Source: Dehalococcoidia bacterium (GTDB lineage: Bacteria; Chloroflexota; Dehalococcoidia; UBA2979). Taken from it: a DNA stretch of 64,000 bases. How positions within the stretch are numbered: the stretch's first letter is position 1; each line of letters begins with the position of its first letter. Positions 27,300 to 59,430 of the stretch are shown here, piece after piece. The notes below the pieces were generated by a model. That model did not search any database. It was given only the letters and a program-made list of their open reading frames with translations, and was not told the origin of the DNA. The DNA is taken from positions 588,093 through 652,092 of the forward strand of contig CBDDEC010000004.1 in the NCBI GenBank assembly GCA_965226785.1. The letters run 5' to 3'. The position numbers and the translations under genes were made by a program.

Positions 27300-27347
27300 C
27301 TTGGACCTCCCCATAGTGAACCGCCCCGGGTTTAGTGGAGACTCGGT

Positions 27348-28555
<1,208 letters not shown>

Positions 28556-28628
28556 CGCTCCATCCTCTCAAGGACTGGAGCCTCCAACATTCCCGGGGCG
28601 GTTCAGAGAGCCGAACTAAGCGAGGTTG

Positions 28629-29441: not shown

Positions 29442-30406
29442 GACGTCTCGGCTGAACGGACCTCGGTGTCGAGGCCCAGCAGTCGCGCGGCGTTTCCTCC
29501 GAGAATCAAGTCGGCCTCGTCGCGCGTGAACGCTCTTCCGTAGCGGTCGGCGCGCTCAGGAAGCTCGCGCATGAAGGTAATGATCTCGGGGTAGGTGCCG
29601 CCCGCGACAGTCCTCGGCCCAGCGGCAAAGTCAGTGCCGAGCAGGATCCGATGCGCGCCGAGAACGTCGCGCATCTCAGACAGCACAGTCACAAACAGCT
29701 CTGGATTACGGAGAGCTTCCCCTGTCCACTGCGAGATCTCGATGTACGAAGTGGGATGGCTGCGGCTGACCTGAAGGGCCTCCTCCCACCAATAACGGTA
29801 CCCCGCGTGTCCGTAGATCAGCGTGGCTTCCGGGTAACGCGCCGCGAGCTCGGAGACAGCGCTGGGGCGCGTGAGCGCCGCTCGGAGGGGCGGCGGTACA
29901 TGCGCTGTGTGCACGAGCACAGGTAAACCTCGCTCAACACACGTTTCGATAAGCGGCTGACAGATGTCGTCCGCAACGCTGTAGCCGCACGCCGGATAGA
30001 GCTTTAGCCCCTTGAAGCCCCACTCATCAACCGCTCGTCTGAAATATTCAAGGGTTTCGTCGCGACGCGGATCCATGCCGAAGAACGCAAAGAAACGACC
30101 AGGGTATTTGAGGATCAGCTCCCCGTGATGCTCGATCACGGCTGAGGGCGGGGTGTCTTGATCTTGGCCGAATGCGAGACCCAGGTCGACGGTCATCGCA
30201 ACTACTGCGTCAACTCCTGCTCGATTCATCTCATCGAGGAGCAGGGTTCCATCAGGATCCGAAGCCCCTTCCATCACCCTCGGAAGAATGGCCAACGGAT
30301 CGCGGTGAGGGAGCGTCCGGTATGCCGCCGACTTAGCCATCCCGAGCTTGTAACCCGGCGGCTGGTAGCCCTCGTCCCATACATGCACGTGCATATCAAC
30401 GATCAT
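29438..30406 (-). CDS. amidohydrolase-family (amidohydrolase 2-like) metal-dependent hydrolase
   Basis: MIVDMHVHVWDEGY start motif and HAGYRYW. Confidence 0.65.
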   Translation of the reverse strand: MIVDMHVHVWDEGYQPPGYKLGMAKSAAYRTLPHRDPLAILPRVMEGASDPDGTLLLDEMNRAGVDAVVAMTVDLGLAFGQDQDTPPSAVIEHHGELILKYPGRFFAFFGMDPRRDETLEYFRRAVDEWGFKGLKLYPACGYSVADDICQPLIETCVERGLPVLVHTAHVPPPLRAALTRPSAVSELAARYPEATLIYGHAGYRYWWEEALQVSRSHPTSYIEISQWTGEALRNPELFVTVLSEMRDVLGAHRILLGTDFAAGPRTVAGGTYPEIITFMRELPERADRYGRAFTRDEADLILGGNAARLLGLDTEVRSAETS

Positions 30407-30451
30407 CGATTGTTCTCTGTCACAGGCCGAGCAGGGCGTCCTTCCCCCTCA

Positions 30452-31264
30452 TCATTCGGTCTCGCCTCGGTTAAACGCGGCGATCGCTTCCTTCAATCCG
30501 TTGGTCCGGACCATGTTCGCCAGCTTCTCCACAGGCTCCGATGCGTGTAACAGCGCGTCGATCTCGGAACCGAACGTCACGGCTACGCGGAACCCCTGGG
30601 TATCCACCGTCCTGTTGACGGAGAGCTTTTTCATCTGGAGGATCTTCGATGGTACCGTCGCGATCTTCATCGCCATTGCCCTGACCGTACTCTCTAGCTC
30701 CTCGGGAGGTACGGCGCGATTTGCCCAGCCCCAGTCTGAGGCCTGTTTTCCGCTAATCTGGCTGCCTGGTACGAACGACATCTCCTTTGCCCGCTTCGGT
30801 CCGACAAGCCAAGTCCACATCGGACTTATGTAGCCGCCTCCGACTGGAATCCCAGGAAAACCGACGATGGCGTCTTCGGCGATGATGGTGATATCGCAGA
30901 AGATACAAAGCTGTGTCGCTCCGCCCAGACAGTAGCCATGGACCTGAGCAATAACTGGCTTCGGGCAATCCCAGATCTTGAGCCACAGATCCGTGTTGCG
31001 CTGCAGTCGGTTGCGATCGTCTATCGTATCCTGCGTCGGCTGACTCGCTTCATCCCCCGGGCTGAGGTCGTACCCCGAAGAGAAGGCTCGTCCGGCTCCT
31101 CGGATGATGATCACCCGCGTATCCGGGTCGTTCGTCGCATCTTCGATAGCGGCCGCGATTCCCTCCCGGATCTCATCGTTGATGGCGTTCAGCCGCTCGG
31201 GGCGGTTCAGCGTAAGAACGCCAATCTGCCCGTCCTTCTCCCACAGCACGCTGTCACTCGACAT
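30452..31264 (-). CDS. enoyl-CoA hydratase/isomerase family protein
   Basis: LTLNRPERLNAIN and AFSSGYDL. Confidence 0.75.
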   Translation of the reverse strand: MSSDSVLWEKDGQIGVLTLNRPERLNAINDEIREGIAAAIEDATNDPDTRVIIIRGAGRAFSSGYDLSPGDEASQPTQDTIDDRNRLQRNTDLWLKIWDCPKPVIAQVHGYCLGGATQLCIFCDITIIAEDAIVGFPGIPVGGGYISPMWTWLVGPKRAKEMSFVPGSQISGKQASDWGWANRAVPPEELESTVRAMAMKIATVPSKILQMKKLSVNRTVDTQGFRVAVTFGSEIDALLHASEPVEKLANMVRTNGLKEAIAAFNRGETE

Positions 31265-31369
31265 CCTTACTTCTCCCTTCGGTCACCCCAGAACCAAGCA
31301 CGGGCGGACCTGCCACCGAACGACGCTCCGAGCCGACGGCACCGCTGGGGGACTTGCACCCGACGCCAT

Positions 31370-32683
31370 CTAAGTCACCGGATGCCAAGTCGGCTCGTTT
31401 CCGATGACTTCGTCAGCCTGAAGCTGAGCTATCTCCTGATCGGATCGCCCCAGGATCTCCTTGAGAACAACAAGATTATCTGCTCCCAGAGTTGGAGAGG
31501 CTGTGTCCCACCCTGCAACCGATCGCTGGAAATGGAACGGAAAACCGACGTAGAGGTGCGCCCCCGATACCGGCCGGTCGAGAAGCTTTATATCACCACG
31601 GTCGTGAAAGTGTTCGATTGCGAGCGCCTGCGACTGATTCGCGACCGGTACTGCCGAAACACCCACTGCTTGCAACGTCGAGGCCAATTCGAAGGCGTTG
31701 TGTTTCCTTGTCCAATTGGAGATGTCCCGATCGAGATCCTCCAGGTGCTCCCGACGCCCTTGGATCGACAAGTACCGCGGATCGTCTGCGAAGCTCTCAC
31801 CCGAAGCTACGCCGCACAGGGCGGTCCACTCCAAATCCGAGTCCACGTCGATTGAAATCCACTCATCAAGGGCAAGCTTAACAGGGCGTTCCTCGGTCGA
31901 GTTCGCCAGCGCGATGATGACCTCCTGCTCGTCGCCTGGCTGGCATAGGTATACATTCTCTGGACCTGGCTTGCGATTCCCATCAGGCTCCTGCACCCGC
32001 TGATTCAGTGCGGAGTCCATCAGGAACTCTATCCCGAGTAACGCAGTGATCTCGACCTGTGCCTGTTCGATGATTTGACCTTGGCCGGTTGCATCACGGC
32101 TACGCAAAGCCGTGATGATCGAGAAAACGGCAATCGCCGCGTTGAAAACGTCCGAGTAAGGGACCGCCGCATCGCCATTGGGCCGCTCGCCACGATATGC
32201 ATGGGCGGCCGCGACGCCGGCAAGCTGGGTGAACGTGGCGCCGTAGCCAGTTCGGCCTGCGAGCGGTCCTTCGGAGCCGAAGCCATCGAGGCTCGCATAG
32301 ATCAGGCGCGGGTTCACCTGAGACAGCTGCTCGTACCCGATCCCGAGTTTCAACGCACTACCAGGTCGGTAGCTTTCGACCACGACATCGCTGACCCGCG
32401 CGAGATCGAGGAAGATTCGGTGACCGCGCTCATCGTCGAGGTTGACGGTGAAGCCGAGCTTCGCGTGATTGTACCCATTGAACGCAGCGCTCCATTCATG
32501 GCCGTCGGGGCCAGGCCTGCAGATGCGCATTAGACGAGCACCGTCATACCGCTGGATCGCTTCGACTTTAATCACCTCGGCTCCGAGGCCGCCGAGCAGG
32601 CAAGTCGCCAGTGGCCCAGCCCAATGCGAGCAATGATCGATGACACGGATGCCGGCGAGCGGCCCAGCCCTAACGGCGGGCAT
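31370..32683 (-). CDS. CaiB/BaiF family CoA-transferase
   Basis: GIRVIDHCSHWAGPLATCLLGGLGAEVIKVE. Start overlaps the upstream stop by 1 nt. Confidence 0.75.
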   Translation of the reverse strand: MPAVRAGPLAGIRVIDHCSHWAGPLATCLLGGLGAEVIKVEAIQRYDGARLMRICRPGPDGHEWSAAFNGYNHAKLGFTVNLDDERGHRIFLDLARVSDVVVESYRPGSALKLGIGYEQLSQVNPRLIYASLDGFGSEGPLAGRTGYGATFTQLAGVAAAHAYRGERPNGDAAVPYSDVFNAAIAVFSIITALRSRDATGQGQIIEQAQVEITALLGIEFLMDSALNQRVQEPDGNRKPGPENVYLCQPGDEQEVIIALANSTEERPVKLALDEWISIDVDSDLEWTALCGVASGESFADDPRYLSIQGRREHLEDLDRDISNWTRKHNAFELASTLQAVGVSAVPVANQSQALAIEHFHDRGDIKLLDRPVSGAHLYVGFPFHFQRSVAGWDTASPTLGADNLVVLKEILGRSDQEIAQLQADEVIGNEPTWHPVT

Positions 32684-33876
32684 CAGTGTTCGCCCGCCAG
32701 GCTTAGCTCCTCGATCGCCTCGTTCGTCAGGCCCAACGCAGAGAGGACCTCGACGGTGTGCTCACCGACCAGCGGTGCCGGAGCCAGCGGAGCGAACGGC
32801 ATCCCGGATGCACGAATATAGTTGCTAGGCATGCGCACTGACGAGCCGTCAGGCAGAGCTTGGTCGGCGAAGTAGCCTCTCACGTTGAGGTGTTCTGCGC
32901 CGAGGACATCCTCGGCGGTCAAGACCGGGCTGATGGGGATCTGGTTCCGCTCGTTGCCCTCCTCAAAGAGTTCATCGCGCGTACGTTGCCGCATAAGTGG
33001 GTCGAATATCTCGTACAGTTCGTCGGCGTGCTCTATCCGAATCGCAGGGTTTGCGAACCGCGGATCTTCCAGCAGCGCATCCAATCCGAACATCGAACAA
33101 AGCCTTCGCCAGTGGTCGTCAGTCAGCAGGTTGATCCCGACGAATCCGTCCGCACATTTCATCACACCCGGAAAGGGGAGGTGGATACGCTGGGAAATGG
33201 CCCCGATATAGGAGAACCGCATCAGTCCCAGCGTCGCCGTCAGCAACTGGCTCCCCACCTGGCTAATATCAATCAGCTGCCCGAGGCGTTCCCGCCGGTT
33301 GGCTCGCAGAGGCGCCGCAAGCATCGCTGCTGCACACGCCCCGGTGAGAAGCTCGGAGGCTCTCCCTGGAGCCCGTAACGGTGGCCCATCTGTCGCGCCC
33401 CACCCGTACATCCCGCCCGCGATCGACTGGAACGCCAGGTCGTGGCCCTTCCAGTAGCGCCAAGGCCCGGTCATCCCGAAAGGCGTAATCCGAAGCCAAA
33501 CAAGCGCCGACAGGTCGGACCTCAGAGCGAGAATGGGGTCGTCATCAGGGTTGAGTGGACGGGAGTCGATCACTGCGTCTGCGCTGCGGAGCAGGATGTG
33601 GAGCGCTTCGCGACCCGACCGGGTCTCGACATCGAGTACTACGCTCCGCTTCCGAGCGTTCAGGAACGCGTGCATCCCGCTCAATGGAGGGCCAGTGGCG
33701 GACTGTTTGAGAGGCGGCAGGGACCGTGTGTCGTCGCCTCCGCTCGGCTCGACCTTGATGATGTCCGCGCCGAGGTCGGAGAAGAGCTTCCCGCAGAGAG
33801 CCCCGGCTATGCCACCACCGAGTTCTACGATGACGACCTCGGCATACGGACCGCTGTAAGATTCAGTGGTCATCAC
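32683..33876 (-). CDS. CaiB/BaiF family CoA-transferase
   Basis: VVIVELGGGIAGALCGKLFSDLGADIIKVEP. ATGA overlap with the upstream LLM gene. Confidence 0.75.
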   Translation of the reverse strand: MMTTESYSGPYAEVVIVELGGGIAGALCGKLFSDLGADIIKVEPSGGDDTRSLPPLKQSATGPPLSGMHAFLNARKRSVVLDVETRSGREALHILLRSADAVIDSRPLNPDDDPILALRSDLSALVWLRITPFGMTGPWRYWKGHDLAFQSIAGGMYGWGATDGPPLRAPGRASELLTGACAAAMLAAPLRANRRERLGQLIDISQVGSQLLTATLGLMRFSYIGAISQRIHLPFPGVMKCADGFVGINLLTDDHWRRLCSMFGLDALLEDPRFANPAIRIEHADELYEIFDPLMRQRTRDELFEEGNERNQIPISPVLTAEDVLGAEHLNVRGYFADQALPDGSSVRMPSNYIRASGMPFAPLAPAPLVGEHTVEVLSALGLTNEAIEELSLAGEH

Positions 33877-34883
33877 GTTCCGAACGTCTTTAGGATTCGG
33901 CGAATGTTCGCAGCTGCATCGGCGCGGGCGGGCCCGGCGGCATGCGAATACAAAATCGGGGTGACAACGCTCTGGAACCGCTCAACGCGATCGATGACGT
34001 CGCTCGCTGTGCCCGCAGCTGCGATGGTGTCGATCATTTCATCGGTGACAGCAGCTGCCAGCGCGTCCCAGTCGCCCGCGCTGAAAGCGTTTCGAATCGG
34101 CTGCTTTTGACTCGACCAGCCGTGCCAATCCAGCAGCTTCCCGTATGACTTGGTGCTCAAATAGTAGCCGATCTGATAAGCCGCTCGCTTGCGCGCCACC
34201 CCGCGATCTTTGTCAATCGAGGTGATGACCCAGCTCGTCAACCTGAAAGCGGCGTCACCCCGTCCGGCCTCATCCAGGCCCTGTTTCACCTTTGGTGCCG
34301 CAGCGCGCTCTAGGTACTCTGGCGAGAAACAGGGATGGCCGGCGAGTCCGTCGAACGTGCGACCGGCCGTCCGGAGCATATAGTCGTTAACCGCCGCCAA
34401 GTAGATCGGGATCGGCGGCTCGACGCGCGCTCGTTTTAGCGCGGGCCCGTCGAGCGTGACGTTGATGAAGGTCCCGCTGAAGTTAAAGGCGCCCGGTTCG
34501 GCGTAAGCCCAAACCTGCCTAAGGAACTCGCAGAGCTCGGCCACACGCGGAGCGGGGTGGTCGAATTCCTCGCCGAGTTGGTAGAGGTTCTGACGCTTCG
34601 TACCGGTGCCAAGGCCAAGGATGAAGCGCCCATCAGTCAACGATTGGAGGTTGGCGGCAGCCGTCGCCAGAGTCAGAGGTGAGCGAGCGAAGGCGCGAGC
34701 GATCCCGGTCCCAAGTGTGGCGCGCCGCACGACGTGGGCGATTGAGGCGAGGGCGACGAAAGCGTCGCCGTCCTCCACCCAGATGGAGTCTAGGCCGCCG
34801 CGGTCGGCGATCTCCGCCAGCCGGATTCGTTCGCGCACGTCAACATGGGCCAACGAAACCCCTAGCGGTTGTCCTGCATCCAT
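33873..34883 (-). CDS. LLM-class flavin/F420-dependent oxidoreductase
   Basis: Luciferase-like TIM-barrel motifs (LGLGTGT, IYLAA). 336 aa. Confidence 0.7.
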   Translation of the reverse strand: MDAGQPLGVSLAHVDVRERIRLAEIADRGGLDSIWVEDGDAFVALASIAHVVRRATLGTGIARAFARSPLTLATAAANLQSLTDGRFILGLGTGTKRQNLYQLGEEFDHPAPRVAELCEFLRQVWAYAEPGAFNFSGTFINVTLDGPALKRARVEPPIPIYLAAVNDYMLRTAGRTFDGLAGHPCFSPEYLERAAAPKVKQGLDEAGRGDAAFRLTSWVITSIDKDRGVARKRAAYQIGYYLSTKSYGKLLDWHGWSSQKQPIRNAFSAGDWDALAAAVTDEMIDTIAAAGTASDVIDRVERFQSVVTPILYSHAAGPARADAAANIRRILKTFGT

Positions 34884-35346
34884 GAGAATCCTCTTCGAAC
34901 CGATCGTCGCAGCGAGCTTGTGCCTGTGTGGCCGATCTCGGCCATGTACCGATGCAGGCGGGCGGCGGACTGAAGACGCCTACTACCATAACGGCGCGCC
35001 GGCCCAATACGACCCACTCTCTCAGCGCTGTGTGTGCCGCTTCTCCTCCCAGGCCCACCCCTACATGTTGACGCGGATGTTAGCCTTCGCCGCGGAACGT
35101 GCTCGGTAAGGATATCGCGGACAGCGCGTCGCCACGGTGATCACCGCCGTCGAGGACCGCGAGGTGCCGGGGCTGCACACGCTGTTGCATCGCGACTTCC
35201 CGGAGATCACGATGCCGATGCCGGCCCAGGCTTTCGGCATCGGCATCGACGAGGGCGGCGACGAGATGATGGACGTGCGCGTCCACGGCGCCGTGATGTT
35301 CGTGATGCCGCTGGACGAGCTGTTCCGCAGCTGACGCCGAGTCCGT

Positions 35347-36408
35347 TCAGGCGGTGCGGACGAGCTTGTTGAGCGACTTCAGCTCCCGCGGCGGATCGAG
35401 GCGGCTGCCGGCGTTGGTGTACGAGACCTCGCCGACGTAGACATCGCCGCGCGAGTCGACGGCCACGCTGTGCGGTGCGATGAACTGGCCGGCGTCACTG
35501 CCCTCCTCGACGGCGCCGAACCGCCCGAGGAGCGTGCCGGAGCGGTCGTACACGCTCACGCGGTGGCCGATCCCGAGCGCGCCATCCATCAGCGCCACGC
35601 CGTTGAGCTCGCCGATGTAGACGAGACCGTCCTGCCCGACGGTGAGTCCGCACGGCCGGTGGACATCGTGCCAGACGTCGAGAAGCGTGCCCTCGCCGTC
35701 GAACACCTGGACGCGGAGCGCCTCGCGGTCGGCGACGTAGAGGCGGTCGTCGGCGTCGATGCTGATGTTGTGCGGGCACATGAACTGCCCTCGGTCGATG
35801 CCGGGCGAGCCCCAGGAGTGCAGCAACTCGCCCTCGGCCGAGTAGTGGTGCACGCGCGCGTTGCCGTAACCGTCGCTGATGTACAGGCTGCCGTCCGAGG
35901 CGACGGCAACGTCGGTCGGGCGGTTGAACGGCTCACCGCTGAACTTCTCGGCGGGCTCATCGGGGCGACCAATCGTCAGCAGCAGCTCACCCTCGGGCGC
36001 CCACTTCGTCACGGTGTGGCGGCCGTCGTCGACGCAGAACACGGAGCCATCGGGCGCGATGGTGATCGCGTGCGTGCGTGCGCTAAAGGTGCCCGCGCCG
36101 AACGTGCGGACGAAGCTACCGTCCGAGTCGAAGACCAGCACCGGGTTGTCCGTGTTGCGGGTGAGTGCGAAGAGCCGGTCGTCCGCGTCAACGGCGACGC
36201 CAGGCGTCTCGTGCAGCGTCATCCCGTCGGGCAGCTGATGCCAATCGATCTGCGCCTCGAACGCGGGCGCGGCCTGGGTCGTGGTGGTCATGGTGCGACT
36301 CCCCTCGATGGTCGAGGCAGCGATGATACGTCGCTTGGCGGGGCTGGGCAGCGCTTGACGCGAGCGTGCCGGCTCGACAGCCTGCGCAGCGAGAGCAGAT
36401 ACGACCAA
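35347..36408 (-). CDS. NHL-repeat beta-propeller protein
   Basis: Paralog of 20191..21225 (SDGYGN, VADREALRVQVFD). Start uncertain (possibly ATG at 36291). Confidence 0.65.
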   Translation of the reverse strand: MVVSALAAQAVEPARSRQALPSPAKRRIIAASTIEGSRTMTTTTQAAPAFEAQIDWHQLPDGMTLHETPGVAVDADDRLFALTRNTDNPVLVFDSDGSFVRTFGAGTFSARTHAITIAPDGSVFCVDDGRHTVTKWAPEGELLLTIGRPDEPAEKFSGEPFNRPTDVAVASDGSLYISDGYGNARVHHYSAEGELLHSWGSPGIDRGQFMCPHNISIDADDRLYVADREALRVQVFDGEGTLLDVWHDVHRPCGLTVGQDGLVYIGELNGVALMDGALGIGHRVSVYDRSGTLLGRFGAVEEGSDAGQFIAPHSVAVDSRGDVYVGEVSYTNAGSRLDPPRELKSLNKLVRTA

Positions 36409-36660
36409 GGTGCGACGAGGCGAGGTGCGGCGCGCAGATCACTGGCATCGAGACGTTTGTGGTGGACGCGGGATGGCGGCCGTGGGCCTTCGTCGCCGTC
36501 CGCACCGACGAGGGGATCACGGGCTACGGCGAGTGCTCGGACGGTCGCAATCCCTTCGGCATCGTCGGCGCGATCACTGACTTCGAGCCGATCGTCCTCG
36601 GGCGCGACCCGCGGGTGGTCGAGGCGATCTACTGGGACCTCTACCGCGTCGGACGCCAGA
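36366..36660 (+). pseudogene. enolase-superfamily (mandelate racemase/muconate lactonizing enzyme) N-terminal fragment
   Basis: ITGIETFVVDAGWRPWAFVAVRTDEGITGYGEC...AIYWDLYR matches the MR/MLE N-terminal capping domain. Similarity ends after about 95 aa. An overlapping minus-strand gene occupies the rest. Confidence 0.55.
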
Positions 36661-37174
36661 GCCCCGGCGGGCGACCCTCCGGCCGGTCGGTGCCGCGCTC
36701 GCCGCACACAGTGCAGAGATAGGCCTCTGACTCCAGCAGCTCCCCCTCGGCGCGCGAGCACTCCGCACAGATGCCCTCGGTGAGCATGGTCCGCCCGCAG
36801 CGCTCGCACTCGTACCGCGGCTGCGTGAGGTCCTTCAGGTCGCCGAGCTCGAGGGCCTGGAAGGCGTGTTGCATGGTCGCCTCTATGACCTTAGGGGCGT
36901 GCCACCCTCTTGCCCGGAACTTCTCTATCAGCTCTCGCGCCGTCCAGCCCTCGCGCAGCTCGAACACGGGGTCGGCGTCCGTGCCGGCGACGAGCCGGAT
37001 GGAATCGCCATCGCTGTTGCTGATATCCGCGGCGAGCCCGGACTGTACCGGCTCCGGCCTGGCGGCCTCCTCGGCCTCCTCGGCGGTCGCCAGGCGCCAG
37101 TGCTCCCAGCCGTAGCGGACCTTGCCGTCCACGCGCATTTTCTTGAGCGCTGGCAGCTTCGGGTGGAGCTGCAC
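36641..37174 (-). CDS. hypothetical protein with C-terminal CxxC zinc-ribbon motifs
   Basis: 177 aa. Motifs CERCGR...CAEC...CTVCGERG. Confidence 0.4.
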   Translation of the reverse strand: MQLHPKLPALKKMRVDGKVRYGWEHWRLATAEEAEEAARPEPVQSGLAADISNSDGDSIRLVAGTDADPVFELREGWTARELIEKFRARGWHAPKVIEATMQHAFQALELGDLKDLTQPRYECERCGRTMLTEGICAECSRAEGELLESEAYLCTVCGERGTDRPEGRPPGLWRPTR

Positions 37175-37175: not shown

Positions 37176-37830
37176 ATGACCGTGCTTTACCTCGGCGTCG
37201 TGATCTCGGTGTTGACGCTCCCGGCGTCGCGGCCGACGCAGGTGGTGGTGGGCCGGTCGGTGTTTGGCGACATGCTCGCCGGGTGGCGCTACGTCATACG
37301 CCAGCCACGCCTGCGCACGATGATCCTGCTCTTCTACTGCATGATCATGCTCGGTCTGTCTTCGACCACCGCCTTCCCTGGCCTGGTCGAGAACGAACTC
37401 GGGCGCAGGGTCGAGGACATCGGCGTGATGTCTCGGTGAGCGCGGTCGGCGGCCTGCTCGCGAGCGTCTTCGTCGCTCCGATCGCCGGTTCGAGGCGTGC
37501 GCTGCCGGTCTACGCGGCTGGCGGCGTCCTCACCGGGCTGTCGTTGGTGCTCGTCGGCCTGACGCCGACGTTCCTGCTGGTCTTCGGACCGATGTTCCTG
37601 ATGGGCCTGGGCACGGGCGCATTCCAGACACTCAACAGCGCCGTGATCGTCACCGAGTCGGCGCCGCAGTACTACGGCCGCGTCATCTCACAGACCTCGA
37701 TGGCGTTTGGAGCGTTCATGCTCGCCTCGCTGCCGGTCGGCCTCGCTGCCGGTCGGCCTCGCGGCCGACGCGTTCGGCGAGCGGGCGACACTGATCGTGA
37801 TCGGACTGCTGATCATCCCGTGGGGCGGCA
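37176..37830 (+). pseudogene. MFS transporter pseudogene (5'-truncated, frameshifted)
   Basis: Two frames carry segments homologous to residues about 170-430 of MFS gene 1336..2631 (YVIRQPRLRTMILLF, FPGLVENELG, ESAPQYYGRVISQT). A 16-bp tandem duplication tcgctgccggtcggcc x2 at 37721..37752 shifts the frame. Confidence 0.65.
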
Positions 37831-37916
37831 ATATTCCATCCAGTCCATGATTTCAGCTTTTCGGAGTCAGCGGCGCGCCTCGCGGATACGGCGGATGAGG
37901 TTTTCGTGCCCCACAG
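37829..37916. repeat. MITE-like ~90-bp repeat element A, copy 1 (terminal inverted repeats CGTGGGGC / GCCCCACAG)
   Basis: Near-identical copies at 53626..53723 and 56495..56592. Imperfect TIRs. The internal GGCGCGCC palindrome is within a duplex-like region. Confidence 0.6.
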
Positions 37917-37921
37917 GGTGG

Positions 37922-39629
37922 GGGTGTGAGATCTCGGTACCCGCACGACAGAACGGCTCCGGTACGTGCACGACATGTGGTGCAGGGTACTAGGCTGCAT
38001 TGATCCGGTCCGGCCTGCCACCTGGGTTCGCAAAGGCACCATGCTCCTTCCTGCGGTCGTGTCTGGCCGCGTGCGTACGAATGATTCGGTCATCGCTCCA
38101 GATCGGCACCGTGTCGCCTGCCAGGGAGACCTCCACCTGGCGTCCCCGGAACGCGTTGCCGACGCGGTAGTTGGCGCCCGCGAAGCTCACCGAGCCGTTG
38201 CGGTCGACCTTGCGGACGACCACCCGGTCCGAGGCCGGACGCTTCGGCGCCGCGGCGAGCGCCTGCTTCAGCACCCGCTCCTCCTGCTCAGGGAGGTGCC
38301 GCCGGGCGTGCGTCGCCACGAGCACCGCGTCGTGGAAGACCTCCACGAGACCGTCGTGACAGACGAGTTCGACGGACTGTCCGGCGAGGTAGCGGCCGAC
38401 GTGGTACTTGAAGTTGAGCAGGCTCACCTTGCCGTCCACGAGCACCCGCCGGAGCAGGCGCGGGGCCGGTGGACCGGGCTCACCCTCCGGGGCTGTTGCC
38501 ACCGGCTCCGACTCCTCAAGGGGCGTCGGATGCGCGGTGGCGAAGCGCTCGGCCGGGGGCCGGTTGCCGAGGCTCTGGTGCTCGCGGCAGTGGTTGTAGT
38601 CGTGCACCCAGGCGTCGATCGCTGCCTGCGCCTCGGCGATCGACGCGAAGACCTTGCCGTCCAGGGACTCCCGCTTCAGCGTCTTGTGGAAGCGCTCGAC
38701 CTTGCCGGTGGTGGTCGGTGACGCAGGCGCGGTCAGCAGGTGGCGGATGCCGTGCTCGCGGCAGATCCGGTCGAAGCGCACCTCGCTCTGGCGCGGCCCG
38801 AAGCGGCCGGTGAAGACCTTGCCGTTGTCGGAGAGGATCGCCTCCGGCACGCCGTGACGGCGCATTGCCTCCAGCAGGGCGTCGCAGACCGGCCGGGCGG
38901 TGGCGCGTGCGACGACCTTCGCCGAGACGCAGAACCGCGAGTGGTCGTCGATGCCCGTCACGATCGAGGGGCGCGAGCCATCCTGTAGCCGCACCCCGAG
39001 CGTAATGTCCATCTGCCAGAGCTCCATCGCCCGCGAGCGCTCCCAGCGCTTGTAGTCGCTGGGCCGCCTGCGCCGTCGCTTGGGGTCGATGAGCTGGTGG
39101 CGGACGAGCGCCCGGTAGATGCCGGACCGAGAGGGGAGAGGCGAGACGCCGGCGCGGGCAAGCCTGCTCAGGATCGTGCGCGGCCCCCAGCCGCGGTGCT
39201 GTCGTCTCATCTCGACGACGCGGGCCTCGACCGCCGGCGGCATCTGGTGCGGGCAGTTGCTGGGGCGTGAACTACGGTCGGCGAGCCCCGGGAGTCCTTC
39301 GGCCGCGTAGCGCCGCAGCCACGTGTGCACCGTCTGCCGCCCGACGCCGTAGCGACGCGCGACGTCGGTGACGCTCGCGGCTCCGTCGAGTACCTCGAGC
39401 ACCGCCCTATACCGCTGTTCCACGAGCCCCAACTCCACCAGCATGGCGGCCTCCTCCGCTGCGGACGGGATCGTCCACCGGGAGGGGCCCTCGAGCAGGA
39501 CCAGGAAGAGCAGCCAGGTGTCGCCCGGCTACCGGAGCCAGTGTCGCCTGCGTACCGGAGCCGCGTCCGCGAAGTGTCGTGCAGGTACCGGCGCCAGGGT
39601 GTCGCCTAGCTACCGGAACCTCACACACT
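37922..39629 (-). mobile_element. IS481-family insertion sequence (type 2), ~1.7 kb, with subterminal repeated motifs
   Basis: Ends are inverted: both read (GTGTCGYSNNGTACCGGNGCC)xN...CTCACAC outward. There are four direct copies of the ~22-bp motif at 39520..39615 and two at 37930..37985. A solo right-end copy lies at 56775..56841. Confidence 0.65.
37990..39444 (-). CDS. IS481-family DDE transposase (484 aa)
   Basis: N-terminal HTH (VTDVARRYGVGRQTVHTWLRRY). DDE core MELWQMDITL...ILSDNGKVF...HNHCREHQSLG. Long C-terminal extension. Confidence 0.75.
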   Translation of the reverse strand: MLVELGLVEQRYRAVLEVLDGAASVTDVARRYGVGRQTVHTWLRRYAAEGLPGLADRSSRPSNCPHQMPPAVEARVVEMRRQHRGWGPRTILSRLARAGVSPLPSRSGIYRALVRHQLIDPKRRRRRPSDYKRWERSRAMELWQMDITLGVRLQDGSRPSIVTGIDDHSRFCVSAKVVARATARPVCDALLEAMRRHGVPEAILSDNGKVFTGRFGPRQSEVRFDRICREHGIRHLLTAPASPTTTGKVERFHKTLKRESLDGKVFASIAEAQAAIDAWVHDYNHCREHQSLGNRPPAERFATAHPTPLEESEPVATAPEGEPGPPAPRLLRRVLVDGKVSLLNFKYHVGRYLAGQSVELVCHDGLVEVFHDAVLVATHARRHLPEQEERVLKQALAAAPKRPASDRVVVRKVDRNGSVSFAGANYRVGNAFRGRQVEVSLAGDTVPIWSDDRIIRTHAARHDRRKEHGAFANPGGRPDRINAA

Positions 39630-39648
39630 CCATGCAAGTGGCGAAGTC

Positions 39649-39696
39649 TGGAGCGGGAGAAGGGATTCGAACCCTCGACCCTCTGCTTGGGAAGCA
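39649..39696 (-). other. tRNA 3'-terminal fragment (T-arm + acceptor 3' strand + CCA); candidate integration att site remnant
   Basis: Minus strand reads ...GGGTCGAGGGTTCGAATCCCTTCTCCCGCTCCA, i.e. T-stem GAGGG/CCCTT, T-loop TTCGAAT, acceptor 3' strand, discriminator and CCA. No complementary 5' acceptor strand or D-arm was found within 130 nt. Adjacent to a tyrosine integrase. Confidence 0.55.
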
Positions 39697-39800
39697 CGCT
39701 GGTTGCCGCAGCAGGCGACATAACTCAGATGTGAGACTGCAGGGAAACTGCAGGGGAATCGCAGGTCAGGGGCCCGCTCGGTGCCGCTTCTGAGGCGGGC

Positions 39801-40727
39801 TCAGCGAGACACCGGGCCGATCATCTGGTCGCCCGGGGAGAAGCGATGGTGGCGTGTTGCCGCCTGCTCCGAGCGGTAGGCCGAGCTGTAGCGACGCACC
39901 ATGTCGGGCGAGGAGTGTCCGAGCAGGTACTGCACGTCGAGTTCGCGGGCATCGTGTGCGATGGCCCACGTCGCGAATGTGTGGCGGAAGCGATGCGCGT
40001 GCACTTTCGCCACTTCTGCGCGACGACCCAGGCGGCGGAGCATCTGCTTGAGCCCGTTCGGTCGGAGCGCGGTCGCTGGCTTCAACTCACCAAGGTGGCT
40101 GGCCGCTACGAAGAGCGGACCCGGAGCCGTTCCCCGCCGCTCGAGGTAGCGCTCCAGCGCGGCGCCACAGTGCGCTGCAAAGGGCACCACGCGCTGCTTG
40201 TTGCCCTTGCCGTGGCGTACGCGCAGCCGGCGCGTCTCGAGGTCGAGGTCATCGAGCGTCAGCTGAACGAGCTCTGAGCATCGCAGGCCAGTGTCGAGTA
40301 AGCACAGCACCATCGCACGATCCCGCAGCCCGAGCGCGGTGGCTGAATCGCACCCCGCCATCAGCTGCGCGATGTCGGCTGGCGAGAACGGCTCGACAAT
40401 GCGCTGTGGCAGCCGGACGTTCTTGATCCCCCGGAACGGGTTGTCTTGGAGGTGGCGAGCGTCGACGAGCCAGTTGAAGAAGCAGCGGACCTCGCGGAAG
40501 TAGCGGTGTCGAGTCTCAAGGCTGAGGTGAGAGAAGCCGCCCAAATAGCGGTAGACGTCTTCCGGCGTGACCGCCGCCGCGTCGGCGACCGTCACTGCGC
40601 GGGCGAAGCGATTCAGTGACTCTCGGTATGCGCGCACCGTCTGCGCGGACTTGCCCTCGACCTCACAGCGCAGGAGGTACAGCGCGCTTAGCTCGGTGAG
40701 GGAGGGGCTCGCGTTCATCACGAGCAT
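39801..40727 (-). CDS. tyrosine-type site-specific recombinase/integrase (Xer/phage-integrase family)
   Basis: C-terminal catalytic motifs ...HRFRHTFATWAI...LLGHSSPDMVRRY. N-terminal SAM-like domain. Start at ATG 40727; the ORF is open to a TTG at 40754. Confidence 0.8.
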   Translation of the reverse strand: MLVMNASPSLTELSALYLLRCEVEGKSAQTVRAYRESLNRFARAVTVADAAAVTPEDVYRYLGGFSHLSLETRHRYFREVRCFFNWLVDARHLQDNPFRGIKNVRLPQRIVEPFSPADIAQLMAGCDSATALGLRDRAMVLCLLDTGLRCSELVQLTLDDLDLETRRLRVRHGKGNKQRVVPFAAHCGAALERYLERRGTAPGPLFVAASHLGELKPATALRPNGLKQMLRRLGRRAEVAKVHAHRFRHTFATWAIAHDARELDVQYLLGHSSPDMVRRYSSAYRSEQAATRHHRFSPGDQMIGPVSR

Positions 40728-40756
40728 GGACGCTCTCTCCCAGGCCGAAGTCAAGC

Positions 40757-41497
40757 GGTGCCGCGGCCATCCGCATCGTCGGCGAGCTGCGTGCGCTTGG
40801 CTTCGACGTCAGCGCTCGCACCGTGAGTCGTTACCGCCGGCAAGCGCTGCGGCGACCGCCGAGCCAGTCGTGGCGCACGTTTCTCCGCAACCACGCGTCC
40901 AGCATCTGGGCCGCCGATCTGTTCACGGTCCAGACGCTCGCCTTCCGCACGCTCTCCGTGCTCATCGTGATCGACCACGACCGGCGCCGCATCCGGCACT
41001 GGAACGTCACGGAGCATCCGAACGCGCCCTGGATCTGGCAGCAGATGATCGAGGCGACCGCCTGGGGTCAGCAGCCAGGGTTCCTCATCCGAGACCGCGA
41101 CCGTAGCTATGGCGGAGACTTCATCGCACGCGCTCGACGGCTCGGGATCGAGACGATTCTGACTCCGGTGCACGCGCCGAATGCCAACGCCATCGCCGAG
41201 CGCGTCATCGGCACGCTCAGGCGCGAGTGTCTCGACCATGTCATCGCGGTCAACGAACAACATCTCCGGCGGGTGCCTGGTGAGTACGTCCAGCACTACA
41301 ACGCGATGCGGCCGCATCGATCATTGGCGCTCGACTCTCCGGAGGGACGCTCGCCGGTGCAGCGGACGCCGAGTCAGCGAGTTGTCAGCAAGCCGGTGCT
41401 AGGAGGTTTGCATCATGAGTATCGGTGGGCCGCATCAGGTTTTGCCGACTTGTTTGAATCCGGCCAGACACCGGGGGTTGCGGCCCTAAGGTGTTGA
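40757..41497 (+). pseudogene. IS481-like (type 1) element copy D: 5'-truncated transposase, stop codon mutated, right IR interrupted by IS110
   Basis: Homologous to the transposase 51259..52338 from residue ~135 onward. Terminal GCATGAGGTTTTGCCGTCCCAC is altered to GCATCAGGTTTTGCCG|ACTTG. The remaining CCCACGG is found at about 42673. Confidence 0.7.
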
Positions 41498-51236: not shown

Positions 51237-52353
51237 GTGGGACGGCAAAACCTGATAGGTGCAGCTCTGTCCTGAGATAGCAGAGTATCGGCGAGCCACG
51301 AGAGGCTCGTCTGTGCTCTACCTCCGTCTGCTTGTCGCAGCACTCTTCGCATCGGTCCGCGCCCGCCGAGATCTCGTCCTCGAGAACTTGGCGCTGCGGC
51401 ATCAGCTCGCCGTCTACACAAGGGGCCGTCGTCGACCGCGGCTCCGTCGCCACGACCGCCGACTCTGGTCACTGCTGGCACGTGGTTGGTCCGGCTGGCG
51501 AGGCACGCTCGTGATGGTCGAGCCGGACACGGTGGTGCGCTGGCATCGTTCTGCTTGGCGCGCCTACTGGCGCTGGAAGAGTCGTCGCCGCTCCGGACGA
51601 CCCCGGATTCCCGCAGAGCTGCGACAGCTGATCGTCCGCATCGCCACTGAGCATCCGCGGTGGGGCGCCGTCCGCATCGTCGGCGAGCTGCGTGCCCTTG
51701 GCTTCGAGGTCAGCGCCCGCACCGTGAGTCGCTACCGTCAGCAGGCGCTCCGGCGACCGCCGAGTCAGTCGTGGCACACGTTTCTCCGCAACCACGCGTC
51801 CAGCATCTGGGCCGCCGATCTGTGCACGGTCCAGACGCTCGCCTTCCGCACGCTCTCCGTGCTCATCGTGATCGACCACGACCGGCGCCGCATCCGGCAC
51901 TGGAACGTCACGGAGCATCCGAACGCGCCCTGGATCTGGCAGCAGCTGATCGAGGCGAGCGCCTGGGGTCAGCAGCCAGGGTTCCTGATCCGAGACCGCG
52001 ACCGTAGCGATGGCGGAGACTTCATCGCACGCGCTCGACGGATCGGGATCGAGACGATTCTGACTCCGGTGCACGCGCCGAATGCCAACGCCATCGCCGA
52101 GCGCGTCATCGGCACGCTCAGGCGCGAGTGTCTCGACCATGTCATCGCGGTCAACGAACAACATCTCCGGCGGGTGCCTGGTGAGTACGTCCAGCACTAC
52201 AACGCGATGCGTCCGCATCGATCATTGTCGCTCGACTCTCCGGAGGGACGCTCGCCGGTGCAGCGGACGCCGAGTCAGCGAGTCGTCAGCAAGCCGGTGC
52301 TAGGAGGCTTGCATCATGAGTATCGGTGGGCCGCATGAGGTTTTGCCGTCCCA
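51237..52353 (+). mobile_element. IS481-like (type 1) insertion sequence, copy A (~1.1 kb, intact)
   Basis: Terminal IRs GTGGGACGGCAAAACCT (left) and rc at the right end. Copies at 57243.. (truncated), 60041..61158 (intact), 63921.. (edge), 40757.. (fragment). Confidence 0.8.
51259..52338 (+). CDS. DDE (rve integrase-core) transposase, IS481-like single-ORF type (359 aa)
   Basis: N-terminal leucine-zipper/HTH (LVLENLALRHQLAV, HPRWGAVRIVGELRALG). Core IWAADLFTVQT...LIRDRDRS...RPHRSL. Confidence 0.8.
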   Translation: MQLCPEIAEYRRATRGSSVLYLRLLVAALFASVRARRDLVLENLALRHQLAVYTRGRRRPRLRRHDRRLWSLLARGWSGWRGTLVMVEPDTVVRWHRSAWRAYWRWKSRRRSGRPRIPAELRQLIVRIATEHPRWGAVRIVGELRALGFEVSARTVSRYRQQALRRPPSQSWHTFLRNHASSIWAADLCTVQTLAFRTLSVLIVIDHDRRRIRHWNVTEHPNAPWIWQQLIEASAWGQQPGFLIRDRDRSDGGDFIARARRIGIETILTPVHAPNANAIAERVIGTLRRECLDHVIAVNEQHLRRVPGEYVQHYNAMRPHRSLSLDSPEGRSPVQRTPSQRVVSKPVLGGLHHEYRWAA

Positions 52354-52564
52354 CGGCCAGCCCGGGTCGCCGAGGTCCCTTGCCGAGATGGCCGTGGCCT
52401 CTGGCGAGATGGAGCCGGGAAAGAGCTCCAGCAGCACATCGGGCGAGCTGGTCCCCGCGCTAGGTATGGTGGGCTGCCCGCGAACTCCGCCACGATCAAG
52501 TCGGCGAAGTCGCCAGCAGAGACTTCGCGTTGGGGGGCAGCCTGTGAAGCAGGGCAGTAGGTCG

Positions 52565-53413: not shown

Positions 53414-53625
53414 CTTCCTGGTCGATCGGCGAGCGCATGCGACTCAGACAACGATACCGCGATCCTCCAGTGGGGCAGACATCAGGCGGTGGAGCCGAAG
53501 GGCTTCGACAGGCTGTGCGGGCGTGGGCCGTGCGCTGGGACGGCTACCCGACCGACCTACGTCGGCGACAGAGACACCACGATCACGATCTCGGCACAAA
53601 GACATACACGATGGGTGAACACACC

Positions 53626-53723
53626 CGTGGGGCGGCAATATTCCATCCAGCCCATGATTTCAGCGTTTCGGAGTCAGCGGCGCGCCTCGCGGATACGGCG
53701 GATGAGGTTTTCGTGCCCCACAG
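53626..53723. repeat. MITE-like repeat element A, copy 2
   Basis: See 37829..37916. Confidence 0.6.
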
Positions 53724-53752
53724 GTGTGGGGCGCGGGTGACACGGCCGAGGA

Positions 53753-56494: not shown

Positions 56495-56592
56495 CGTGGG
56501 GCGGCAATATTCCATCCAGCCCATGATTTCGGCGTTTCGGAGTCAGCGGCGCGCCTCGCGGATACGGCGGATGAGGTTTTCGTGCCCCACAG
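56495..56592. repeat. MITE-like repeat element A, copy 3
   Basis: See 37829..37916. Confidence 0.6.

Positions 56593-58222: not shown

Positions 58223-59430
<1,208 letters not shown>

What the first reader, a model, noticed from the sequence alone, without database searches (positions are those of the whole stretch)
39649..40754. Tyrosine integrase immediately adjacent to a tRNA 3'-end fragment: boundary of an integrated element
Minus strand 39696..39649 encodes only the 3' third of a tRNA (T-stem GAGGG/CCCTT, T-loop TTCGAAT, acceptor 3' strand CTCCCGC, discriminator, CCA). There is no matching 5' acceptor strand or D-arm. That is the signature of an attL/attR remnant from site-specific integration into a tRNA gene. 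A Xer/phage-type tyrosine recombinase gene ends 105 bp away. The island to its right (40.7 to about 46.7 kb) holds the nuclease module and multiple IS elements. The type 2 IS481-family element abuts the fragment on the other side.
Basis: seen in the sequence. Interest (0 to 1): 0.55.

Follow-up and report, generated by a model that had tools for sequence, protein, structure and literature searches.

The report
Integrase next to tRNA-Gly half site
A small Xer-like integrase gene sits beside the left-over 3' part of a tRNA-Gly gene. This is the ordinary scar of a mobile element that inserted into that tRNA, but in this Dehalococcoidia lineage the gene-plus-scar module exists in ten or more copies, and the scar also attracts a tRNA-seeking insertion sequence.

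Summary
Minus strand 39696..39649 is a 48-nt 3' part of tRNA-Gly(CCC), running from the anticodon stem to CCA. It is identical to eight intact tRNA-Gly(CCC) genes found in metagenomes. No tRNA finder calls a gene there.

A 308-aa tyrosine recombinase (39801..40727, minus) ends 104 nt upstream. It has only core-binding and catalytic domains, with all six catalytic residues.

The att-site reading is supported by comparison. In 23 of 33 other genomes, homologues of 55-85% identity have a tRNA-Gly(CCC) half downstream on the same strand. L023 and L040 show whole elements: intact tRNA, cargo, integrase, repeated half.

The proposed island (40.7-46.7 kb) cannot be delimited. The window has no second copy of the half and no tRNA. 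A 99.6%-identical strain differs immediately upstream of the integrase gene.

The closest genome carries at least 10 integrase-plus-half modules, all ending exactly at the half.

The IS481-family element next to the fragment is not there by chance. Its subfamily inserts 17-19 nt (23 in the window) after tRNA 3' ends, in one orientation, with a 14-15 bp target duplication.

Verdict: a new member of a known kind, with two notable extras.

The parts
39649..39696 (-). 48-nt 3' part of tRNA-Gly(CCC), from three bases inside the anticodon stem to CCA. This is the att core of an attR-type junction.
   Evidence: Sequence read. Single copy in the window. 48/48 identical to intact tRNA-Gly(CCC) genes in L093-L100. 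Identical in every paralogous module whose half lies in the fetched DNA.
39697..39800 (-). 104-nt element-side arm (P arm) between the integrase stop codon and the core. It ends in ...GGCAACCAGCG and replaces the tRNA 5' half.
   Evidence: The last 30 nt before the core (positions 39697-39726), the stretch that was compared, are conserved in the L001-L008 and L013 copies. An RACCAGCG-like motif directly 5' of the core recurs in distant genomes: L014, L016, L022, L025, L051 and L104. Intact tRNAs read ...GGTAGAGCATC at the same place.
39801..40727 (-). Arm-less (core-binding plus catalytic) Xer-like tyrosine integrase, 308 aa. The start is the ATG at 40727.
   Evidence: Pfam Phage_integrase 2e-35 plus SAM-like N-terminal domain. 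R, K, H-x-x-R, H and Y align with XerD R148/K172/H244/R247/H270/Y279. Below every NCBIfam Xer cut-off. Identical to P0001.
40728..40766 (-). 39-nt conserved leader upstream of the integrase start, containing TTGACTT and GGAGAG motifs. Homology with paralogous copies and with the sister strain ends here.
   Evidence: Upstream alignment of 12 copies; breakpoints at -39, -66 and -125.
40755..41447 (+). Truncated copy of 'IS A' (rve_3 transposase) lacking its first ~421 nt, fused to the integrase leader.
   Evidence: Self-BLAST against the full copies 51236-52356, 57242-... and 60040-61160. Junction alignment. L001 has a full IS A at this place. The same junction occurs in L004, L005, L006 and L010.
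39626..39648 (-). 23-nt spacer between the CCA and the end of the IS481-family element. It holds the start of the original 3' flank (ACTTCGCCAC) and target-duplication-like sequence.
   Evidence: The empty site in L003 reads CCA-ACTTCGCCACCCTGTGGGGCACG.
37925..39625 (-). 'IS B', an IS481-family insertion sequence. The transposase (37990..39444) is co-directional with the tRNA half, and both ends start TGTGAG.
   Evidence: Pfam rve, rve_3, LZ_Tnp_IS481 and Mu-transpos_C_2. Ends and flanks. Subfamily-wide insertion 17-19 nt after tRNA 3' ends.
37817..37924 (-). Continuation of the pre-insertion 3' flank of the half on the far side of IS B. It is itself a 108-nt repeat also present at 53624-53731 and 56493-56600.
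   Evidence: Contiguous with the half in L003.

Best explanation
The 48 nt are the attR-side copy of the 3' part of tRNA-Gly(CCC). They were left when a mobile element integrated into that tRNA gene.

How it works. The element's integrase is the adjacent 308-aa tyrosine recombinase of the 'simple', Xer-like type: core-binding plus catalytic domains and no arm-binding domain. It pairs an element-borne copy of the tRNA 3' part (attP) with the tRNA gene (attB) and exchanges strands in or next to the anticodon loop. The tRNA is rebuilt at the far end of the element (attL). The original 3' part ends up next to the integrase gene, preceded by element sequence in place of the tRNA 5' half. The element therefore lay on the integrase side, at higher window coordinates.

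What is shown: the anatomy, the intact catalytic residues, the family-wide and orientation-specific link to tRNA-Gly(CCC) halves, and complete elements in relatives.

What is inferred: the crossover position, that this copy is or was active, and the history below.

In this IS-rich Dehalococcoidia lineage the module is one of many. Related integrases (87-100% nt identity) each sit next to an identical half. That is expected if each half is host tRNA sequence captured at a separate integration. Some modules were then copied together with flanking IS pieces. In the window the interior of the element has been overwritten by IS insertions and deletions, and its attL partner is not within 24 kb.

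The IS481-family element 23 nt beyond the CCA arrived independently, because its subfamily inserts at a fixed distance 3' of tRNA ends. The half alone is enough of a target.
For: - The fragment is identical to the 3' 48 nt of intact tRNA-Gly(CCC) genes, and homology stops at the anticodon stem.
- There is no tRNA or 5' half in the window.
- The integrase has the Pfam domains and all six catalytic residues. It has no room for an arm-binding domain: the SAM-like domain starts at residue ~29.
- Among homologues of 55-85% identity, 25 of 39 loci in 23 of 33 genomes have a Gly(CCC) half downstream on the same strand. Fourteen of these lie within 400 nt. One locus has the half on the opposite strand. 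None of 28 loci with homologues below 55% identity has one.
- The T-arm of each half co-varies with its genome.
- L023 has an intact tRNA at 2637-2711, an identical 48-nt repeat at 10991-11038 and the integrase in between, at the repeat end. L040 is similar, with an 88%-identical repeat.
- Some halves begin TTCTT instead of TGCTT. Identity with the tRNA then starts at the last stem base, which places the exchange at the loop.
- Pairwise comparisons of the 13 copies compared (the window, L001 and 11 loci of the closest genome); for those whose module is not truncated, the alignments end at +1066..+1101 from the ATG. That is at the CCA or 11 nt beyond it. The upstream ends vary from -10 to -2334.
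- The sister strain L001 shares the left flank, the half and the integrase at 99.6%, then diverges upstream of the integrase.
Against: - No intact tRNA-Gly(CCC) and no second half were found in the window, nor within 10 kb of any of the 11 integrase loci of the closest genome. The element is therefore not delimited here, and excision competence is unproven.
- Five copies share the same truncated-IS/integrase junction. They arose by duplication, not by separate integrations.
- No excisionase or other element genes are recognisable next to the integrase.
- Pipelines built on the classical model deliberately exclude Xer-like integrases (PMC4383910), so this type of integrase is not the textbook case.
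Confidence: 0.75

Rival explanations
1. The integrase plus half (about 1.1-1.2 kb) is itself a complete, self-multiplying mini-element. On this view it is an IS-like tyrosine-recombinase element whose end mimics a tRNA half, not the edge of a larger island.
For: - At least 10 copies in one genome, with a precise common right end.
- Two tandem integrase-half units in L031.
- Copies of 99-100% identity at dispersed sites.
Against: - No copy has a second core at its left boundary, which any conservative site-specific insertion must create.
- Left boundaries vary (-10, -39, -66, -125, -317 to -386, -1879, -2334) and often coincide with IS junctions.
- Relatives show multi-gene cargo between the tRNA and the integrase.
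Confidence: 0.12
2. The halves and integrases form an active cassette-accretion platform that works like an integron. Single genes bounded by tRNA-Gly halves would be captured, excised and reshuffled by the integrase, with the halves acting like attC sites.
For: - L016, L104 and L105 read: integrase, half, luciferase-like monooxygenase, half, HAD hydrolase, half.
- L098 reads: intact tRNA, a single Peptidase_S51 gene (1.36 kb), half.
- Cargo in L023 and around the window is the same kind of metabolic paralogue.
Against: - The distal halves have mutated anticodon loops (TGACTCCCCGG, TGCTTCGCGAG, TACCTCCC). They look like decaying scars of old integrations rather than maintained sites.
- The one presence/absence difference examined (L104 versus L105) does not break at halves.
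- The protein scores far below the integron-integrase model (69.8 versus 265 bits).
Confidence: 0.08
3. Coincidence. On this view a tRNA-Gly gene lost its 5' half to an unrelated deletion or IS event. The neighbouring gene would be a housekeeping XerC/XerD-type dimer-resolution recombinase.
For: The protein's best NCBIfam and PDB matches are XerA, XerD and XerC. The region is full of IS-mediated rearrangements.
Against: - The same breakpoint in the anticodon stem, followed by a similar element-side motif, recurs in more than 20 genomes with strict orientation.
- The gene is multi-copy.
- Scores are far below the Xer equivalog cut-offs: 157 versus 220, 152 versus 330 and 151 versus 335 bits.
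- The surroundings vary between strains.
Confidence: 0.03

Closest known systems
Genomic islands and integrative elements in tRNA/tmRNA genes with tyrosine integrases, as mapped by Islander (PMC4383910), anticodon-centred attP class
   Same: Integration splits the tRNA gene and the element restores it. The regenerated gene and a displaced 3' fragment in direct orientation mark the ends, and tandem arrays occur. The identity block here starts at the anticodon stem. In Islander's table the anticodon-centred class (2083 islands) is slightly the larger of the two attP classes (1836 T-stem/junction).
   Different: The integrase is Xer-like and arm-less, a subclass that Islander explicitly excludes from its integrase search. 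It sits at the fragment (attR) end and reads towards the fragment. The partner tRNA is not in the window, and modules are unusually numerous in one genome.
Simple (core-binding plus catalytic only) tyrosine recombinases carried by mobile elements, such as the IntBrujita subgroup of mycobacteriophages (classification in PMC8138268; structure 5vfz, Gp33)
   Same: Two-domain architecture with no arm-binding domain, yet used for integration of a mobile element. PDB hit to 5vfz at E=5.7e-12. No excisionase nearby.
   Different: The sequence relationship is only distant. The family is not phage-borne: the best IMG/VR relative is 43% identical over a fragment. It is confined to Chloroflexota-type metagenome genomes, and its cargo is metabolic.
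Dehalococcoides ssrA-specific genomic islands (PMC3146451)
   Same: Same bacterial class. Many tandem islands lie downstream of one small-RNA gene, each bounded by a direct repeat of its 3' end. A conserved motif lies just upstream of each repeat. Integrase-less 'cis-mobilizable' units are explained by accretion.
   Different: Those islands use a large serine recombinase (DsiB) next to attL, a 20-bp repeat and a T-loop crossover in tmRNA. Here the enzyme is a tyrosine recombinase next to attR, the repeat is 48 nt and the site is anticodon-centred in tRNA-Gly(CCC).
XerC/XerD/XerA chromosome-dimer resolvases
   Same: These are the best sequence and structure matches (XerA 4a8e and XerD 1a0p, E~1e-22), with the same catalytic hexad.
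   Different: The protein is below all curated cut-offs, multi-copy, strain-variable in context, and linked to tRNA halves rather than a dif site.
IS481-family insertion sequences with ~15-bp target duplications (PMC10045372). For targeting logic only: eukaryotic tRNA-gene-targeting retrotransposons such as Ty3 and TRE5, and Tn7 at attTn7 (recalled from general knowledge, not tested here).
   Same: The neighbouring IS B has an rve DDE transposase, an IS481 leucine zipper, TGTG... ends and 14-15-bp duplications.
   Different: I found no report of an IS481 member that inserts at a fixed distance 3' of tRNA genes in one orientation. That is a negative from a limited library only.

Membership tests
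tRNA-gene-targeting integrative element (Islander criteria, PMC4383910) | A tyrosine-recombinase integrase gene inside the element | tested here: met
   Pfam Phage_integrase 2e-35; catalytic R, K, H, R, H, Y conserved against XerD and XerA.
tRNA-gene-targeting integrative element (Islander criteria, PMC4383910) | A fragment identical to the 3' part of a tRNA gene | tested here: met
   48/48 identity to eight intact tRNA-Gly(CCC) genes; the chance maximum is 29/48.
tRNA-gene-targeting integrative element (Islander criteria, PMC4383910) | An intact cognate tRNA gene in direct orientation on the same replicon, marking the other end | not testable with these tools
   Absent from the 64-kb window and from +/-10 kb around 11 paralogous loci. 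The whole genome could not be scanned. Met in relatives L023 and L040.
tRNA-gene-targeting integrative element (Islander criteria, PMC4383910) | Consistent orientation of the fragment relative to the integrase and element across family members | tested here: met
   25 loci with the half downstream on the same strand against 1 on the opposite strand; 0 of 28 for homologues below 55% identity.
XerC/XerD/XerA dimer-resolution recombinases | Score above the curated equivalog cut-off | tested here: not met
   XerA 157.4 versus 220; XerD 152.3 versus 329.6; XerC 150.9 versus 335.2 bits.
XerC/XerD/XerA dimer-resolution recombinases | A conserved, vertically inherited housekeeping gene (one or two per genome) | tested here: not met
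   At least 10 paralogues of 87-100% nt identity in one genome; context differs between 99.6%-identical strains.
Simple (arm-less) tyrosine recombinases of mobile elements (PMC8138268) | Core-binding plus catalytic domains only, with no arm-binding domain | tested here: met
   308 aa; SAM-like domain at residues 29-98, catalytic domain at 125-293.
Integron integrases | Score above the integron-integrase model cut-off | tested here: not met
   TIGR02249 69.8 versus 265 bits; NF011946 30.7 versus 435 bits.
Temperate-phage integrase (prophage boundary) | Close relatives on viral contigs, or phage genes in the element | tested here: not met
   Best IMG/VR relative is 43% identical over a partial match. 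The generic PHROG integrase family matches, but cargo in relatives is metabolic.
IS481 family (the neighbouring IS B) | rve-type DDE transposase with IS481 N-terminal region, terminal inverted repeats and a target duplication | tested here: met
   Pfam rve, rve_3 and LZ_Tnp_IS481; TGTGAG... ends; 14-15-bp duplications in L117, L120 and L132; empty site in L003.

The most novel reading that the evidence does not exclude
The tRNA-Gly halves may be more than dead scars. They could form a dispersed set of portable landing pads that two unrelated mobile systems keep re-using. Xer-like integrases would use them as secondary attachment sites, accreting and reshuffling metabolic gene units (luciferase-like monooxygenases, hydrolases, CoA-transferase-type paralogues). 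A tRNA-3'-flank-homing IS481 subfamily would use them as beacons. Together they would drive the paralogue-rich, IS-rich genome architecture of these Dehalococcoidia.
Probability: 0.25. Interest if true: 0.65.

Novelty: new member of a known kind. Interest (0 to 1): 0.4.

Why it matters
**Annotation.** This is a large, uncharacterised clade: more than 4,600 database relatives at E<=0.001, many at 60-70% identity. Its members are Xer-like integrases that behave as tRNA-Gly(CCC)-specific island integrases in Chloroflexota. Island finders that discard Xer-like recombinases (PMC4383910) will miss these elements, and annotation pipelines will label the genes XerC/XerD.

**Biology.** The cargo seen in relatives, and the genes around the window, belong to the metabolic paralogue families that are expanded in these organisms. 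The system may therefore be one route by which those families are acquired and rearranged.

**The neighbouring IS.** If the tRNA-flank targeting of the IS481 subfamily is confirmed, it gives a bacterial DDE insertion sequence a 'safe-haven' strategy like that of eukaryotic tRNA-targeting retrotransposons. It would also be a simple experimental system for studying how a transposase measures a fixed distance from a tRNA gene.

Tried and rejected
1. **Mini-element idea.** I looked for a second core at the left edge of each of the 12 copies and found none.

2. **The 108-nt repeat after IS B (37817-37924) as the element's other arm.** Its end matches the terminal repeat motif of IS A-type elements (CCGTGGGACGGCAAAA flanks IS A in L001). 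It is therefore more likely IS or MITE debris.

3. **IS110-IS A-integrase-half (3.0 kb) as a unit moved by the IS110 element.** The IS110 outer flanks are all different and show no shared target. Left unresolved.

4. **Cassette mobility from the L104/L105 difference.** The 2.3-kb indel does not break at halves.

5. **Prophage origin.** No close viral relatives.

No hits in Pfam, NCBIfam, PADLOC or PHROGs. Not pursued.

7. **Degenerate halves in the window.** None above chance. An earlier fuzzy-regex attempt timed out, and one regex was mis-specified (corrected).

8. An exact look-up of the window's IS B transposase found nothing on record, so homologues were used instead. One early tblastn used a wrong-frame translation and is void (tblastn part only).

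9. **The 'tRNA-Gly' ARAGORN calls in L114.** It does not reach Rfam's tRNA model at E<=0.01 and has an aberrant 5' half. I treat it as a pseudo-tRNA or half.

10. **Literature.** Searches for a Chloroflexi tRNA-Gly integrase and for tRNA-targeting IS481 elements gave nothing specific.
Full report
**1. What is at the locus**

Read on the minus strand, 39696..39649 is TGCTTCCCAAGCAGAGGGTCGAGGGTTCGAATCCCTTCTCCCGCTCCA. It contains:
- the last three bases of the 5' strand of an anticodon stem;
- the loop TTCCCAA, giving the anticodon CCC (Gly);
- the 3' strand of the anticodon stem, the variable loop and a complete T-arm;
- the 3' acceptor strand, the discriminator and CCA.

The 27 or so bases that would form the acceptor 5' strand, the D-arm and the rest of the anticodon stem are replaced by unrelated sequence (...GTCGCCTGCTGCGGCAACCAGCG).

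ARAGORN finds no tRNA in the whole window. Rfam finds no tRNA here even at E<=10. No tRNA-Gly 5' half occurs anywhere in the window.

The 48 nt are identical to the 3' part of eight intact tRNA-Gly(CCC) genes recovered from metagenomes. Those genes read ...GGTAGAGCATC immediately before TGCTT. The next-best match in the window is 28/48, within the range of shuffled sequence, whose maxima are 25-29.

**2. The recombinase**

The ORF 39801..40727 (minus strand, 308 aa, ATG at 40727) has an N-terminal SAM-like core-binding domain (residues ~29-98) and a Phage_integrase catalytic domain (125-293, E=2e-35).

Aligned with E. coli XerD and Pyrococcus XerA, it keeps all six catalytic residues:
- the Arg in TGLRCSEL;
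- the Lys in GKGNKQR;
- the His and Arg in HRFRH;
- the His in LLGHS;
- the Tyr in RRY.

It has no arm-binding domain, so it is a 'simple' tyrosine recombinase in the sense of PMC8138268. It is not a housekeeping Xer: it scores far below the curated XerA, XerD and XerC cut-offs and is multi-copy (section 4). It has no close relatives on viral contigs.

**3. Evidence that the two belong together**

The database holds more than 4,600 relatives at E<=0.001, many of them 60-70% identical to the query, mostly from Dehalococcoidia and Chloroflexota metagenome genomes. I fetched 77 loci from reference genomes and looked for tRNA-Gly(CCC) 3' halves around each homologue.

| Homologue identity | Loci (genomes) | Half downstream, same strand | Half downstream, opposite strand |
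|---|---|---|---|
| 55-85% | 39 (33) | 25 loci in 23 genomes; 14 within 400 nt, 11 at 2.8-8.9 kb | 1 |
| below 55% | 28 | 0 | 0 |

The T-arm of each half differs between genomes in compensatory fashion. Each half is therefore a copy of that genome's own tRNA, not a sequence travelling with the integrase gene.

Two loci show the full picture:
- In L023 an intact tRNA-Gly(CCC) (2637-2711) and a perfect 48-nt repeat (10991-11038) bracket 8.3 kb. That stretch holds oxidoreductase, DHDPS-family, cupin and flavin-oxidoreductase genes. It also holds the integrase homologue at the repeat end, here with two in-frame stops.
- In L040 an intact tRNA and an 88%-identical repeat bracket 5.2 kb.

In every case the identity block starts at the anticodon stem. 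In several elements it starts one or two bases later (TTCTT instead of TGCTT). This places strand exchange at the anticodon loop, one of the two attP classes (anticodon-centred versus T-stem/junction) tabulated for tRNA-integrating elements (PMC4383910).

The arrangement is the standard one: intact tRNA, element, displaced 3' fragment. The integrase sits at the fragment end and reads towards the fragment.

**4.

The closest reference genome is a long-read Dehalococcoidia MAG, CBDAOL01. It carries at least 10 loci with this gene at 87-100% nucleotide identity, plus one at 66% amino-acid identity. The window is not collinear with any of these loci. It is collinear at 99.6% over 11 kb with metagenome contig L001, and a second sample yields the same 1.2-kb module (L002).

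Every copy whose downstream region is intact is followed by the identical 48 nt. In all pairwise comparisons the homology ends at the CCA or 11 nt beyond it. The upstream ends are scattered: -10, -39, -66, -125, -317 to -386, -1879 and -2334.

Perfect conservation of the half beside integrase genes that differ by up to 12% is what the mechanism predicts. With exchange at the left edge of the core, the attR half is host tRNA sequence captured afresh at each integration.

Five copies, including the window's, share one peculiar junction: the integrase leader fused to an internal point of an IS (section 5). Those five must be secondary duplications. On MAG contig_10, five of six modules have the same orientation over about 250 kb, and both modules on contig_12 share an orientation. 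This is compatible with large, IS-shuffled accretion arrays.

**5. The surroundings in the window**

To the right of the integrase, homology with other copies ends 39 nt upstream of the ATG. There a copy of 'IS A' begins at its internal position ~421 (40755-41447). Full copies of IS A lie at 51236-52356, 57242-... and 60040-61160.

L001 has a complete IS A at -66, followed by entirely different genes: a type I restriction-modification system and HicA.

Further right, the window holds:
- an IS110-family element (~41431-42679);
- two ORFs with no hits in four HMM libraries;
- a diverged IS A relic;
- an IS6-like element (45699-46647);
- ordinary metabolic genes, namely a CoA-transferase III at 46942-49395 and a luciferase-like monooxygenase at 50156-51100.

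**6. The IS481-family neighbour is targeted, not incidental**

The end of 'IS B' (37925-39625; transposase 37990-39444, co-directional with the half) lies 23 nt from the CCA. In the loci fetched for the integrase, the same IS end occurs only next to a Gly half. It lies exactly 18 nt after the CCA in L001, L002, L004, L013, L015, L101 and L102/L103, even though the 18-nt spacers have unrelated sequences. The other IS end occurs in unrelated contexts. L003 is an empty site.

Because those loci were chosen for the integrase, I re-sampled through the transposase. I took homologues of 69-99% identity and fetched their contigs. Almost every copy whose upstream end is on its contig lies 17-19 nt after a tRNA 3' end, always co-directional. 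The tRNAs involved are:
- intact tRNA-Gly(CCC) (L115/L116, L131);
- tRNA-Gly(GCC) (L118, L132);
- tRNA-Ala(CGC) (L122);
- tRNA-Ala(UGC) (L124-L126);
- tRNA-Arg(CCU) (L130);
- tRNA remnants.

The only uninformative cases are one copy whose end was replaced by another IS (L119) and contigs too short to show the flank. Identical transposases sit beside different tRNA species, so the cue is a general feature of tRNA 3' ends. Target duplications of 14-15 bp, spanning roughly +5 to +18, are visible in L117, L120 and L132. That fits the IS481 members known to make ~15-bp duplications (PMC10045372).

I found no description of such targeting in the searchable literature, which is a limited negative. 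For the present finding it explains why an IS481 element 'abuts the fragment', and it shows that the 48-nt half alone suffices as a target.

**7. Other arrays**

In marine relatives (L016, L104, L105) the order is: integrase, half, luciferase-like monooxygenase, half, HAD hydrolase, half. In L098 an intact tRNA-Gly(CCC) is followed by a single Peptidase_S51 gene and then a half.

These integrase-less single-gene units resemble the 'cis-mobilizable' units and accretion described for Dehalococcoides ssrA islands (PMC3146451). Their distal halves have mutated anticodon loops, and the one strain difference I examined does not break at halves. I therefore read them as decaying scars of successive integrations rather than an active integron-like system, but I keep that reading as the novel case.

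**8. Verdict**

The feature is a genuine attR-type junction: integrase, element arm and displaced tRNA-Gly(CCC) 3' part. It belongs to a Chloroflexota-specific family of arm-less, Xer-like integrases.

As a kind of thing it is well known. What is new is the particular integrase clade, which standard island finders would skip. Also new are the number of modules in one genome and the tRNA-flank-homing IS481 subfamily that piles onto them.

The extent of the element in this window, its current activity and the crossover point remain inferred.

Noticed in passing
window 37925-39625 (IS B) and 39626-39648; loci L001, L002, L004, L013, L015, L101-L103, L114-L140: The IS481-family element next to the fragment belongs to a subfamily (transposases 69-99% identical, TGTG... 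ends, Mu-transpos_C_2 C-terminal domain). The subfamily inserts 17-19 nt (mostly 18) after the 3' end of tRNA genes or tRNA halves: Gly-CCC, Gly-GCC, Ala-CGC, Ala-UGC and Arg-CCU. Insertions are always co-directional with the tRNA and make a 14-15-bp target duplication. About 17 or more independent events were seen. No report was found in the searchable literature.
   Followed up: yes
L003-L011, L013, L015 (MAG CBDAOL01); L101-L103: At least 10 paralogous integrase-plus-half modules occur in one genome, all ending exactly at the CCA (or 11 nt beyond it). They are mostly co-oriented along contig_10 over about 250 kb. Five copies share the same truncated-IS/integrase junction, so part of the amplification is segmental duplication.
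   Followed up: partly
L016 8384-11190; L104/L105 10975-13730; L098 430-1912: Single genes without an integrase (luciferase-like monooxygenase, HAD hydrolase, Peptidase_S51) are each bounded by tRNA-Gly(CCC) halves. They lie downstream of the integrase or of the intact tRNA, giving an integron-like layout. The distal halves carry mutated anticodon loops.
   Followed up: partly
about 75 nt after the CCA in L008, L014, L016, L023, L033, L035, L056, L098 (absent from the window): After the tRNA or half comes a terminator hairpin (GGCCCGCC...GGCGGGCC). It is followed by a conserved look-alike of the anticodon arm with a different loop: GACCATCTGCTTACTGAGCAGAGGG, against CATCTGCTTCCCAAGCAGAGGG in the tRNA. 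This could be an accessory or alternative recombinase-binding site.
   Followed up: no
window 39626-39648 compared with L001 11080-11097 and L002 1111-1128: The junction between the CCA and the IS B end differs among otherwise 99%-identical strains: GACTTCGCCACTTGCATGGAGTG, ACTTCGCCACCCCCTGTG and ACTTCGCCACCCCATGGC. The window's version resembles the target duplication of another IS B copy (L117). This suggests recombination or re-insertion between IS copies.
   Followed up: partly
L008, L009 (9109-9440), L018 and L053 (9265-9893): Some family members have a second, diverged (about 73% nt identity) Xer-like gene immediately upstream of the integrase, forming a tandem recombinase pair with no half between them.
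   Followed up: no
window 12973-14245, 27333-28605, 58173-59445 (inverted); 51236-52356, 57242-..., 60040-61160, 63920-64000; 41431-42679; 45699-46647: IS load in the window is very high. There are three essentially identical (99.5-99.9%) copies of a 1.27-kb IS, one of them inserted into an IS A copy. There are three full copies of IS A, one truncated copy and one copy cut off at the window end. An IS110-family element and an IS6-like element are also present. IS A is flanked by CCGTGGGACGGCAAAA-type terminal repeats, and a similar motif ends the IS110-family element and the 108-nt repeat at 37817-37924.
   Followed up: no
L023 9974-10930: In the one complete element with perfect 48-nt repeats, the integrase gene carries two in-frame stop codons. 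The repeats have outlived the enzyme, or the stops are sequencing errors in that MAG.
   Followed up: partly
window 29780-37000 and 46942-51100, 61589-63795: Both sides of the module carry the same kinds of metabolic paralogues: luciferase-like monooxygenases, family III CoA-transferases (one an 817-aa ORF with two CoA_transf_3 matches), amidohydrolase, enoyl-CoA hydratase and aminotransferase. These resemble the cargo of related elements.
   Followed up: no
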